Positions 21,001 to 24,000 of a stretch of 64,000 nucleotides of DNA are shown one piece after another. Location: the IMG/VR virus record IMGVR_UViG_2718218360_000008. One strand, written 5' to 3'. Positions within the stretch are counted from its first letter, which is position 1, and each line of letters begins with the position of its first letter. Made by a program: the position numbers. Source of the DNA: a virus. Taxonomy: Duplodnaviria > Heunggongvirae > Uroviricota > Caudoviricetes.

Positions 21001-24000
21001 TGCGCATCAACGCCAACTGTCCAGGCTCCTTGCGTAAAGCCCCCATCACCTCCGGCGTGGATAATGCAACCGGTCCCCGACTGGCAGAAGCCGCTGAACG
21101 GGATTATTTCATCCTCAGAGAACGGCTGATGGCAATGCAGAAGCAACTGGAAGGAGCACAGGAATATATCCGTACCCAGTGTATACCGTGATGTTTTGTT
21201 ACGAAGGTGTTACTGGTAACGTTAAGGTAATTTAACAAAGAGTCAGTTCCGGACTTTATAGTGTGCTCAGTTCATGGCCAAAAACGATTTCTGTGATAAA
21301 TATTTTGAATATTATTTACAGGTAAATGGAGTGGGGCACATGGATAGAAATATTACAATAGAGTATGAAGTATATGCCCGTATTGTATGGGCAGAGAAGG
21401 CAAAAACATGGTAATTCCGTGTGTTGCCATGATACCTGATTGGCAGAATTGTTGTTTGGTTTTGAGTATATAGTCAGCGTCTTTTGTTCGGTAATTGCTC
21501 TTTCAATTAAAATGCCAGATATGATTTGCTTTTCTTTGTTGTTTAGTTTTTTTGTATATTATTTTTATTGTTTTTATATAATTAGTTTTTTATTGTTGTC
21601 TTATTAAGGACGGTAAATTCAGGATGGCAGTCTGTAGATAAACGGAGGTTACTTATGCTACATGATCACCTGGCAGAATGTCTGGAGAAAAAAGGACTGT
21701 ACCGGAGAGCAGCTGAACGATGGGCAAAAGTGATGGTACAGCTAAGTGATGACCAGAAAAGAAAAGTGGCGGCACAGAAACGAGCAGAGTGTTTGCGTAA
21801 GGCGCGCCGGACTCCGGTTTCACCGGTGAACCTGACCGAAATAAAACAAGCGGTCAACAGACTACATTCTGAGTTGGGAATGGGATTTGAAGAGCGGCGG
21901 GTATTCCGACGATATAAAGGGACAGGAGAACAGAATACGTCCGGAAACGCGCGGTCAAAAAAATGCTAAAAAATATCTGAGAGCGTTATTGCCTGTTACC
22001 ATAAGAAAAAGCGACTTTAGTGGTCGCTTTTTGTGTCATATATAAGTCGTTTAAGTAAACCTGTCTGAACAGGTTCTCTGGTCGTGTTTGTCTTTGTTGG
22101 GTACAAATTGAGAATATTTTTCATTAATTAATCTTCTTCTGCAGGCTTCAATAACCCACGCTGAAAAATTTCCTGAACCTTTCAGATCAAGAGCGATGTT
22201 AATTTGTTCAATCATCTGGTTTGGAAATCGGATGTTGCGGGTTGTTGTTCTGCGGGTTCTGTTCTTTGATGACATAATGTTGCCCCATATTCAGTGTTGC
22301 TGATTTGTATTATCTGAAGTTGCTTTTACGTTAATTTGATGCAGATCAATTAATACGATACCTGCGTCATAATTGATTATTTGACGTGGTTTGATGGCGT
22401 AGATGCACGTTGTGACATGTAGATGATAATTATTATCATTTTGCGGGTCCTTTCCGGCGATCCGACCGGTTACGGGGCGGCGACCTCGCGGGTTTTCGCT
22501 ATTTATGAAAATTTTCCGGGGAAAATCATGTCGGTACTTCTCGAACATAACTATTTGTTTTTTCTAATATCGAATCCGTAAAGGTCCGACATGAAAACGC
22601 CTGAAAAAGTCATTTTCGGGCACTTTCATGTCGGACCCTGTATTTGTTGTGAGACTGTTTCATGAAGGTTAATAAAAAGAAACTTGCCGAAATTTTCAAC
22701 GTGGATCCGCGAACGATTGAACGCTGGCAGTCTCAGGGGCTCCCTTGCGTCTCCGGAGGTGGTAAGGGCGTTGAATCTGTATTTGATACCGCCACGGCAA
22801 TTCAGTGGTATGCGCAGAGGGAAGCTGATATCGAAAATGAAAAACTCCGTAAAGAGGTTGAGGATTACAGGGCTGCCAGCGAGGCAGATCTCCAGCCTGG
22901 GACTATTGAGTACGAACGCCATCGACTTACGCGTGCGCAGGCTGACGCCCAGGAGCTGAAGAATGCCAGAGACTCCGCAGAAGTGGTGGAAACCGCATTC
23001 TGTACTTTCGTGCTGTCACGGATCGCAGGTGAAATTGCCAGTATTCTTGACGGGATCCCTCTCTCAGTACAGCGGCGTTTTCCGGAACTGGAAAACCGAC
23101 ATGTTGATTTCCTGAAACGGGATATCATCAAAGCCATGAACAAAGCAGCCGCGCTGGATGAACTGATACCGGGGTTGCTGAGTGAATATATCGAACAGTC
23201 AGATTGATATTCTGCGGCGTGATGTACGCGCCGGGCTGCGAGCCCTGTTCAGGCCGGAGCCACAGACTGCCGTTGAATGGGCGGATGCCAGTTACTATCT
23301 CCCGAAAGAATCCGCATACCAGGAAGGGCGCTGGGAAACACTACCCTTTCAGCGGGCTATCATGAATGCGATGGGCAGCGACTACATCCGCGAGGTGAAT
23401 GTGGTGAAGTCTGCCCGTGTTGGTTATTCAAAAATGCTGCTGGGTGTTTATGCCTACTTCATAGAGCATAAGCAGCGTAACACCCTTATCTGGTTGCCGA
23501 CGGATGGTGATGCCGAGAACTTTATGAAAACCCACGTCGAGCCTACCATCCGCGATATTCCGTCGCTGCTGTCTCTGGCCCCGTGGTATGGCAAAAAGCA
23601 CCGGGATAACACGCTCACTATGAAGCGTTTCACCAATGGTCGTGGCTTCTGGTGCCTGGGCGGTAAAGCGGCAAAAAACTACCGTGAAAAGTCGGTTGAT
23701 GTGGCGGGTTATGATGAACTTGCTGCCTTTGATGAGGATATTGAACAGGAAGGCTCTCCGACGTTCCTGGGTGACAAGCGTATTGAAGGCTCGGTCTGGC
23801 CAAAGTCCATCCGTGGCTCCACGCCCAAAGTGAGAGGCACCTGCCAGATTGAGCGTGCAGCCAGTGAATCCCCGCATTTTATGCGTTTTCATGTTGCCTG
23901 CCCGCACTGCGGGGAGGAGCAGTATCTTAAATTTGGCGATAAAGAGACGCCGTTTGGCCTCAAATGGACGCCGGATGACCCCTCCAGCGTGTTTTATCTC

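What the first reader, a model, noticed from the sequence alone, without database searches (positions are those of the whole stretch)
21200..21969. PerC-like regulator preceded by an extremely AT-rich region
A 104-aa PerC-family activator occupies the position between Rz and cos. About 140 bp upstream (21,480-21,620) is almost pure A/T with poly-T tracts, typical of H-NS-silenced horizontally acquired regulatory DNA. PerC-like proteins activate type III secretion loci in pathogenic E. coli, so this prophage may carry a virulence regulator.
Basis: partly seen in the sequence, partly recalled or inferred. Interest (0 to 1): 0.5.

Follow-up and report, generated by a model that had tools for sequence, protein, structure and literature searches.

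The report
pchB virulence regulator on an O157 prophage

Summary
ORF 21655-21969 (+) encodes a 104-aa PerC-family protein (Pfam PF06069, E 5e-44, full length). It lies between Rz (20718-21191) and a lambda-identical cosN (22475-22486). The tract 21480-21620 is the lowest-GC stretch of the 64-kb window (17% GC over 100 bp; window mean 53.6%, sd 7.4).

The gene is not merely PerC-like. It is base-for-base identical to pchB (ECs2182, prophage Sp11) of E. coli O157:H7 Sakai. It differs by 1 nt from pchA and 2 nt from pchC, and window 4870-43311 is Sp11 at 99.35% identity. It aligns with EPEC PerC over residues 2-88 at 47% identity.

PchA/B/C are published activators of the LEE1/ler promoter that act by displacing H-NS. 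They are regulated by LrhA, and translation of pchA is activated by the sRNA DicF. A DicF gene lies in the same prophage (3238-3289, minus strand).

The gene sits in a ~0.95-kb insert (21170-22140) with a bidirectional terminator. It fills the slot where K-12 DLP12 carries borD-ybcV-ybcW.

H-NS silencing of pchB's own promoter is plausible but could not be tested, and I found no report of it.

One point beyond the annotation: the AT tract is a divergence hot spot. It differs by 32% between pchB and pchA/pchC, against under 1% in the coding sequence.

Verdict: already known, low interest.

The parts
21655..21969 (+). pchB coding sequence (104 aa PerC-family activator of LEE1/ler); pchB allele, defined by C at CDS position 16, G at 172 and C at 183
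   Evidence: Zero nt differences from Sakai ECs_2182. The three diagnostic positions are the same ones reported in PMC5931665.
21644..21648 (+). Shine-Dalgarno GGAGG, 6 nt before the ATG
   Evidence: Sequence. Predicted to be partly paired (about 0.6 probability) with CDS nt 21678-21684 in one folding window, but the prediction is unstable.
21480..21620 (+). AT/T-rich upstream tract, the presumed promoter and regulatory region of pchB; the core 21501-21611 is a divergence hot spot between pch copies
   Evidence: Lowest GC of the window. 32% divergence from the pchA and pchC copies against 0.3-0.6% in the CDS. All three copies keep about 20% GC at -150..-40.
21577..21582 (+). Perfect TATAAT hexamer (candidate -10), present only in the pchB-type tract; the best -35 is poor (TTGTAT or TGTATA, 3 of 6)
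   Evidence: Candidate only; no mapped transcription start was available.
21593..21619 (+). Alternative candidate promoter shared by pchA, pchB and pchC (TTGTTG/TTGTTA, 15-16 nt spacer, TAAATT)
   Evidence: Weak consensus match; inference only.
22006..22034 (.). Bidirectional intrinsic terminator between convergent pchB and the DUF3950 gene: AAAAAGCGAC / GTCGCTTTTT, perfect 10-nt arms, 7-nt loop, with an A run before and a T run after
   Evidence: I14. The stem appears in both the MFE and the centroid structure.
21170..22140 (+). The pch insert: the segment with no DNA homology to K-12 DLP12, where DLP12 has borD-ybcV-ybcW between rzpD and ylcI
   Evidence: Homology of Sakai Sp9, which lacks pch, also stops at 21181.
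20718..21191 (+). Rz spanin gene (with Rz1 at 20944-21129), last gene of the lysis cassette; left boundary of the insert
22051..22275 (-). YlcI/YnfO-family (DUF3950) gene, a standard lambdoid gene next to cos; right boundary of the insert
22475..22519 (+). cosN and the start of cosB; matches the left end of phage lambda (lambda sequence recalled from memory)
3238..3289 (-). DicF sRNA gene in the same prophage, upstream of dicB; DicF is the published translational activator of pchA
   Evidence: Rfam RF00039, 75 bits against a gathering score of 48. dicB context. Function from PMC7769764, PMC7873438 and PMC9438474.
21274..21414 (+). 46-codon ORF inside the insert, probably not a gene
   Evidence: phrog_2157, E 1e-37, but not annotated by PGAP. 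About 9 nt changes give 7 aa changes in the pchC copy.

Best explanation
This is pchB, the PerC homologue carried by the Sp11-type lambdoid prophage of E. coli O157:H7.

Shown here:
- The coding sequence is identical to Sakai pchB.
- The surrounding prophage is Sp11.
- The gene lies in a ~0.95-kb low-GC insert between Rz and the ylcI-like gene next to cos.
- A bidirectional terminator follows the gene and an extremely AT-rich tract precedes it.
- The same slot holds other cargo (borD-ybcV-ybcW) in DLP12, and pch is absent from Sp9.

From the literature on this same protein and its near-identical paralogues:
[quoted passage not shown] Ler then switches on the rest of the LEE type III secretion system.
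- pchA and pchB transcription depends on LrhA. Nutritional and stationary-phase signals (ppGpp/DksA, Lrp/butyrate, NtrC) feed in through pch, mostly shown for pchA.
- pchA translation is held back by an intramolecular Shine-Dalgarno:anti-Shine-Dalgarno pairing that the sRNA DicF opens under low oxygen.

Inferred, not shown:
- The AT tract holds pchB's own promoter and regulator sites.
- The tract is a likely H-NS target.
- Its 32% divergence from the pchA/pchC tract is the basis of the copy-specific regulation reported for pchA versus pchB.
- Because the gene follows the lysis cassette on the same strand, Q-antiterminated late transcription should also read into it on prophage induction.
For: Identity:
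- 0 nt differences from pchB, 1 from pchA and 2 from pchC. These are the same three diagnostic positions published in PMC5931665.
- Window 4870-43311 matches Sp11 at 99.35%.
- RefSeq annotates the identical protein WP_001302717.1 as a PerC family regulator, and Sakai annotates ECs_2182 as pchB.

Family:
- Pfam PerC, E 5e-44.
- 47% identity to EPEC PerC over 87 residues.
- All conserved family residues are present.

Insert architecture:
- Homology breakpoints at about 21170 and 22141 relative to DLP12, and at 21181 relative to Sp9.
- Terminator.
- GC minimum of the window.

Function from the literature:
- Anti-H-NS mechanism (PMC4764244).
- LEE activation and LrhA dependence (PMC4456613; PMC13012123).
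- PchB is the strongest ler::lacZ activator of the five Pch proteins, and group-1 pch mRNA rises after SOS induction (PMC5931665).
- ECs2182 mRNA rises 3.2-fold in stationary phase (PMC2241611).
- DicF control of pchA, with a DicF gene in this same prophage.
Against: - No transcription start or promoter is established here. The sigma-70 scan found no site upstream of the gene at its threshold. My best candidates have poor -35 elements.
- Folding does not single out the 5' region (z -0.22). The predicted partner of the Shine-Dalgarno changes with the folding window.
- The full-length DicF:pch duplex energy is only about 2 sd better than shuffles and is not among the best in the window. The DicF link for pchB therefore rests on near-identity to pchA, not on my computation.
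- H-NS binding to this tract is undocumented in what I could read. The published 10-bp high-affinity H-NS motif is not enriched there (one site with 2 or fewer mismatches).
- The LEE itself is not in the window, so the presence of the target is inferred from the O157:H7 identity of the matches.
Confidence: 0.95

Rival explanations
1. The AT tract is an H-NS nucleation site that keeps pchB silent until a counter-silencer such as LrhA (or a change in temperature or osmolarity) relieves it. It refines the main explanation rather than replacing it.
For: 17-23% GC, T-tract-rich, and the lowest GC in 64 kb. H-NS prefers AT-rich horizontally acquired DNA (PMC4764244 introduction). The pchA, pchB and pchC tracts all keep about 20% GC while their sequences drift, as if composition rather than sequence were the constrained feature.
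Against: I found no ChIP or genetic evidence for H-NS at pch promoters. There is only one near-match to the TCGATAAATT motif. The T tracts show no clear 10-11-bp phasing. The tract is short (~110-140 bp) and flanked by DNA of ordinary composition. A very AT-rich upstream is not a family-wide feature: it occurs at about 28% of 54 PerC-homologue loci.
Confidence: 0.4
2. pchB has no promoter of its own. It is expressed only as a passenger of the phage late operon (read-through from the lysis genes after Q antitermination), and the AT tract is a neutral spacer.
For: The gene is on the same strand as, and directly downstream of, S-R-Rz. No terminator was detected between Rz and pch, and no consensus promoter was found. 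Group-1 pch transcripts rise with SOS/prophage induction (PMC5931665).
Against: pch genes are needed for LEE expression under ordinary non-inducing culture (PMC4764244). ECs2182 mRNA rises in stationary phase without induction. pchA and pchB are reported to depend on LrhA. In the SNP-resolved RNA-seq the pchB rise after induction was modest and not significant (log2 1.74, P 0.09). The Sp11-type prophage here has a truncated integrase and looks defective.
Confidence: 0.08
3. The ORF is a PerC-family paralogue without LEE-activating function, like pchD, pchE or K-12 yfdN, and regulates something else such as curli or flagella.
For: Only some PerC homologues activate ler. PchD and PchE have little effect, and PchE represses csgD (PMC6265319; PMC5931665).
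Against: The protein is identical to PchB, which was the strongest ler activator tested, and differs from PchA by one conservative residue (L6V).
Confidence: 0.02

Closest known systems
pchB (ECs2182) of E. coli O157:H7 Sakai, prophage Sp11
   Same: The coding sequence is identical (315 of 315 nt). The whole Rz-to-Nu1 interval is identical in my alignment. The prophage backbone matches at 99.35% over 38 kb.
   Different: Nothing at the locus itself. The window's prophage is followed by a second prophage instead of Sakai's nleG effector cluster and ydfJ. The same cassette sits beside ompW in strains TR01 and FRIK2455.
pchA (ECs1091, Sp4) and pchC (ECs2737, Sp14)
   Same: Each is 104 aa and differs by one residue (L6V in PchA, V58M in PchC). 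They occupy the same Rz-pch-terminator-cos position, have the same ~20% GC upstream tract, and share the LEE1-activating function.
   Different: The 110-bp AT tract differs by about 32% from the pchB type, and the perfect TATAAT is pchB-only. pchA lies in an IS-disrupted, inverted segment of Sp4. The literature reports differential LrhA regulation of pchA and pchB (title of Honda et al. 2009).
PerC of typical EPEC (perABC operon on the EAF plasmid, e.g. pMAR7)
   Same: Same Pfam family, 47% identity over 87 residues, same GLYRRAAxRW core, and activates the LEE1/ler promoter.
   Different: PerC is 89 aa and lacks the basic C-terminal tail. It is plasmid-borne as the third gene of an operon under PerA rather than a stand-alone prophage insert. 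It is dispensable for LEE expression in EPEC under many conditions, whereas pch is essential in EHEC (PMC4764244).
Lambdoid 'moron' cargo at the Rz-cos junction (bor of lambda, borD-ybcV-ybcW of DLP12)
   Same: Same insertion slot between Rz and the ylcI-like gene, with flanking homology on both sides, atypical composition and its own terminator.
   Different: The cargo is unrelated (a regulator rather than a lipoprotein) and faces the opposite way from bor. A moron promoter is not demonstrated here.
Ler, the other horizontally acquired anti-H-NS regulator of the LEE
   Same: Works alike: a small protein that activates by antagonising H-NS silencing (PMC4764244).
   Different: Ler is an H-NS paralogue with an H-NS-type DNA-binding domain. 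PchB has no sequence match to any solved structure, and its model is four helices whose N-terminal half resembles TPR-like hairpins.

Membership tests
PerC family (Pfam PF06069) | Match to the family profile above the curated cut-off, over the full domain | tested here: met
   148.8 bits against a cut-off of 22.6, residues 1-89 on profile positions 1-89 of 90.
PerC family (Pfam PF06069) | Alignment with the prototype EPEC PerC along the whole protein, not just a motif | tested here: met
   Residues 2-88 against 3-87 of pMAR7 PerC, 47% identity, E 1e-27.
PerC family (Pfam PF06069) | Conserved core G-[LF]-[YWF]-R-R-A-A-x-R-W and the conserved Cys in helix 3 | tested here: met
   R17, A19, A20 and W23 are invariant, and A7 L10 E11 G14 R18 R22 C46 are at least 90% conserved, in 45-46 diverse homologues. 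All are present in the query.
PerC family (Pfam PF06069) | Activates the LEE1/ler promoter | not testable with these tools
   Published for the identical protein: ler::lacZ rose from 1,577 to 12,513 Miller units with PchB (PMC5931665).
Group-1 pch genes (pchA/B/C) of EHEC O157:H7 | 315-nt CDS identical among members except at positions 16, 172 and 183 | tested here: met
   The window has C16, G172 and C183, the pchB allele. The rule is stated in PMC5931665.
Group-1 pch genes (pchA/B/C) of EHEC O157:H7 | Carried on a lambdoid prophage downstream of the lysis cassette and before cos/Nu1 | tested here: met
   Same layout at Sakai pchB and pchC.
Group-1 pch genes (pchA/B/C) of EHEC O157:H7 | Host carries the LEE (ler) target | not tested
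   The LEE is not in the window. Every listed 100% match to window 1-24000 is an E. coli genome, most labelled O157:H7, and this serotype is LEE-positive by established knowledge.
Phage moron (autonomous cargo cassette) | Present in some and absent from other closely related phages at the same junction | tested here: met
   Absent from Sp9 (homology stops at 21181) and replaced by borD-ybcV-ybcW in DLP12.
Phage moron (autonomous cargo cassette) | Own terminator | tested here: met
   Perfect 10-bp stem with flanking A and T runs at 22006-22034. This is a prediction only.
Phage moron (autonomous cargo cassette) | Own promoter | tested here: inconclusive
   There is a perfect TATAAT at 21577 but a weak -35. 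The consensus scan found nothing there. No transcription-start data were available.
H-NS-silenced promoter | AT-rich relative to its surroundings | tested here: met
   Lowest GC of the window, about 5 sd below the mean.
H-NS-silenced promoter | H-NS occupancy and derepression in hns/stpA mutants | not testable with these tools
   No report found in the papers searched.
DicF-activated mRNA (as shown for pchA) | Intramolecular Shine-Dalgarno:anti-Shine-Dalgarno pairing, and DicF pairing at the anti-Shine-Dalgarno site in the CDS | tested here: inconclusive
   The CDS differs from pchA by 1 nt, and DicF is in the same prophage. Folding z is -0.22 and the Shine-Dalgarno partner is unstable. Duplex energy z is about -2. 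The primary paper (PMC6628830) is not held.

The most novel reading that the evidence does not exclude
The ~110-bp AT tract may be a separately evolving or exchangeable promoter module. It differs by about 32% between the pchB type and the pchA/pchC type, while the flanks and coding sequence are 95-99.7% identical and all versions keep about 20% GC. If so, each pch copy gets its own regulatory input (LrhA, H-NS, late read-through).

The Sp11-type prophage would also be a self-contained circuit that carries both the sRNA DicF and an mRNA it is expected to activate.

The differential regulation of pchA and pchB is already published, so what would be new is the physical basis and the module-like behaviour.
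Probability: 0.3. Interest if true: 0.3.

Novelty: already known. Interest (0 to 1): 0.1.

Why it matters
pchB is one of the master switches for attaching-and-effacing virulence in E. coli O157:H7, and recognising it shows that this prophage contributes to host virulence regulation. For a genome scan, the value is as a positive control. A tool-free reader correctly picked a real virulence regulator, with its unusual promoter region, out of raw sequence. Nothing here changes current understanding.

The only loose ends worth a specialist's glance are:
- the sharply localised divergence of the AT tract between pch copies;
- the missing direct evidence for H-NS at the pch promoters;
- the lack of any solved structure for this family.

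Tried and rejected
- **Rfam.** Permissive thresholds over 18000-24000 gave nothing credible at the locus, only sub-threshold miRNA and lncRNA hits on the cos-Nu1 hairpin.
- **NCBIfam.** No model matched the PerC ORF.
- **Promoter and terminator scan.** No promoter was found upstream of pch, and the scan missed the AAAAAGCGAC hairpin, which has fewer than 3 G-C... pairs by its rules only in part; I found it by folding and repeat search.
- **DicF:pch full-length duplex.** At -48.9 kcal/mol it looked striking, but shuffles average -41 to -42 (sd 3.5) and many window segments do better. I rejected it as evidence.
- **Shine-Dalgarno sequestration.** Folding z is -0.22, the unpaired probability of the Shine-Dalgarno is 0.2-0.6 depending on the folding window, and there is no consistent difference between pchA and pchB.
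- **H-NS motif and T-tract phasing.** Neither was informative.
- **AT-rich upstream or Rz/cos neighbourhood as a family-wide trait.** Rejected. Only about 28% of 54 homologue loci across Enterobacterales have an unusually AT-rich upstream. None has lambda-type Rz, lysozyme or Nu1 neighbours. The 91%-identical E. albertii homologue sits beside flagellar-type genes (my reading of the ORF translations).
- **orf46 as a small gene.** It has a PHROG hit but a mostly non-synonymous substitution pattern, so I treat it as non-coding.
- **Which prophage.** I first took the window to be the ompW prophage of strain TR01 because of the 100% local hit. BLAST against Sakai showed the backbone is Sp11.
- **Literature.** I looked for H-NS or transcription-start data at the pch promoters and found nothing usable. 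Melson & Kendall 2019 and Abe et al. 2008 are not held.
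Full report
**What is there**

The ORF at 21655-21969 (+) has an ATG start, a GGAGG Shine-Dalgarno at 21644-21648, and encodes 104 aa. It matches Pfam PerC (PF06069) over the whole domain, with E 5.4e-44 and 148.8 bits against a cut-off of 22.6.

Upstream lie a lysozyme (19202-19735), a P22-type antirepressor-like gene (20006-20575), and Rz (20718-21191) with embedded Rz1 (20944-21129). Downstream lie a DUF3950/YlcI-YnfO gene on the minus strand (22051-22275), a 45-nt stretch at 22475-22519 matching the left end of phage lambda as I recall it (cosN at 22475-22486), Nu1 (22662-23207) and terminase A (23182-25107).

**The AT-rich tract**

Region 21480-21620 is 22.7% GC and 56% T. 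The 80-bp core is 14.8% GC, with T runs of 4-7. At 100, 140 and 200 bp it is the lowest-GC segment of the entire window. The minimum is 0.17 against a mean of 0.536 and sd of 0.074.

**Identity**

A megablast of 21200-22300 hit many E. coli O157:H7 chromosomes at 100%, annotated 'PerC family transcriptional regulator | YlcI/YnfO family protein'. The full cassette is present in 672 of 5,426 complete E. coli genomes.

I fetched the three named pch loci of strain Sakai. The window's CDS has 0 differences from pchB (ECs_2182, Sp11), 1 from pchA (position 16, L6V) and 2 from pchC (positions 172 and 183, V58M). These are exactly the three diagnostic positions reported by Uhlich et al. (PMC5931665).

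Window 4870-43311 aligns with Sp11 at 99.35%, and window 1-24000 is 100% identical to several O157:H7 genomes. The gene is therefore pchB on an Sp11-type prophage.

**Relation to PerC**

A tblastn search against plasmids found the perA-perB-perC operon of the EPEC plasmid pMAR7. The pairwise alignment covers residues 2-88 at 47% identity (E 1e-27).

An exhaustive HMMER search of 1.84 billion representative proteins found only 84 clusters at E <= 1e-3. An alignment of 45 of them shows an invariant R17/A19/A20/W23 core (GLYRRAAxRW) and a conserved C46, all present here.

**Anatomy of the insert**

Against K-12 DLP12, DNA homology stops inside Rz at about 21169 and resumes at 22141 inside the ylcI-like gene. 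DLP12 carries borD-ybcV-ybcW in between. Sakai Sp9, which lacks pch, loses homology at 21181. The pch cassette is thus a ~0.95-kb low-GC insert in a known cargo slot.

It ends in a perfect 10-bp hairpin, AAAAAGCGAC-N7-GTCGCTTTTT (22006-22032). Its flanking A and T runs would let it act as a terminator for both convergent genes.

No promoter passed the consensus scan. The best candidates are a perfect TATAAT at 21577-21582 with a poor -35, specific to the pchB tract, and a weak TTGTTG-15-TAAATT (21593-21619) shared by all three copies.

A 46-codon ORF (21274-21414) has a PHROG match. However, it is not annotated by PGAP, and it changes 7 of 46 residues in the pchC copy from about 9 nt differences, so I treat it as non-coding.

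**Copy-specific upstream tract**

I aligned the Rz-to-Nu1 intervals of pchA, pchB and pchC. Divergence between pchB and the other two copies is:

| Segment | Coordinates | pchB vs pchA | pchB vs pchC |
|---|---|---|---|
| After Rz | 21192-21500 | 2.3% | 5.2% |
| AT tract core | 21501-21611 | 31.6% | 32.7% |
| Leader | 21612-21654 | 4.7% | 7.0% |
| CDS | 21655-21969 | 0.3% | 0.6% |
| 3' region | 21970-22132 | 0.6% | 1.8% |

All three tracts nevertheless stay near 20% GC. This localised divergence is the natural candidate for the 'differential regulation of PchA and PchB' by LrhA reported by Honda et al. 2009 (cited). I could not read that paper, so the link is my inference.

**How it works**

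This section rests on the literature for this protein and its one-residue paralogues.

- PchA/B/C are required for full LEE expression and adherence (Iyoda & Watanabe 2004, via PMC4456613).
- Pch activates LEE1 only when the promoter is repressed by H-NS/StpA/Hha/YdgT. It reduces H-NS occupancy in vivo and excludes H-NS in vitro, so it is an anti-silencer (PMC4764244).
- Cloned PchB gave the strongest ler::lacZ activation of the five Pch proteins.
- Reported inputs include LrhA, ppGpp/DksA, Lrp/butyrate and NtrC, stationary phase (ECs2182 up 3.2-fold) and SOS/prophage induction.
- pchA translation is blocked by a Shine-Dalgarno:anti-Shine-Dalgarno fold that the sRNA DicF opens under low oxygen.

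Rfam finds a DicF gene at 3238-3289 (-), directly upstream of dicB in this same prophage. My attempts to support the RNA mechanism computationally were inconclusive. The 5' fold has z -0.22, the Shine-Dalgarno partner is unstable, and the DicF duplex z is about -2.

**H-NS at pchB's own promoter**

The composition fits. However, I found no ChIP or genetic evidence, no enrichment of the high-affinity H-NS motif, and no helical phasing of the T tracts.

Across 54 PerC-homologue loci from other Enterobacterales, only about 28% have an unusually AT-rich upstream. None shares the lambda-type neighbours, so both features are specific to the pchABC lineage and not to the family.

**Verdict**

The object is the already characterised gene pchB, so novelty is nil and interest is low. 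The residual open points are the physical basis of copy-specific regulation in the AT tract, direct evidence for H-NS there, and the unsolved structure of the family.

Noticed in passing
window 3238-3289 (-), with dicB at about 2876-3064 (-): A DicF sRNA gene (Rfam, 75 bits) lies in the same Sp11-type prophage as pchB. DicF is the published translational activator of pchA, so the sRNA and a probable target are carried on one element.
   Followed up: partly
window 21501-21611: The AT tract is a sharp divergence hot spot between pch copies: about 32% for pchB against pchA or pchC, and about 10% for pchA against pchC, while the flanks and CDS are 95-99.7% identical. About 20% GC is conserved in all three.
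   Followed up: partly
window 21274-21414 (+): A 46-codon ORF matches phrog_2157 (E 1e-37) and is not annotated by PGAP. In the pchC copy about 9 nt changes give 7 amino-acid changes, so it is probably not coding.
   Followed up: partly
L002 (strain TR01, ompW prophage) 21655-21969; L066 (FRIK2455) 14322-14447: The identical pchB cassette with an Sp11-like late region sits in an ompW-integrated, Sp9-like prophage in TR01, and next to an ompW remnant in FRIK2455. In Sakai it is at ydfJ. This points to late-region exchange or inversions between lambdoid prophages.
   Followed up: partly
window about 44070-45550: The Sp11-like tail-fibre end abuts the lysis module of a second prophage whose Rz is broken into two ORFs (44884-45042 and 45104-45352). 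Sakai's nleG effector cluster is absent. No complete E. coli genome in the collection matches 40000-64000 in one piece (best 99.1%, in 2 pieces).
   Followed up: partly
[not shown]
   Followed up: partly
proteins P0024 (7614 aa) and P0059 (768 aa): Two very long proteins show 7 and 5 separate PerC-like stretches (E 7e-11 and 2e-6). These could be compositional, coiled-coil-like matches. I did not examine them.
   Followed up: no
window 22583-22637: An inverted repeat with 25-nt arms (88% complementary) lies between cosN and the Nu1 start, in the cosB region. It produces spurious sub-threshold miRNA hits in Rfam and differs in the Sp14 (pchC) copy.
   Followed up: no
window 10498-10672, 15988-16160, 14966-15038, 15142-15215: Other RNA genes in the prophage: sok antitoxin RNA (113 bits), STnc100 sRNA (105 bits) and two tRNAs (the Ile and Arg pair seen in Sp11).
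   Followed up: no
window about 640-830: The second-lowest GC segment of the window (about 24% GC over 100-140 bp) lies between the DinI-like gene and the truncated integrase at the prophage's left end.
   Followed up: no
L008 3971-4279 (Escherichia albertii NBRC 107761): A 91%-identical pch homologue has its own AT-rich upstream (about 20% GC minimum) and lies next to flagellar-type genes (my reading of the ORF translations) rather than in a lambda-type late region.
   Followed up: no
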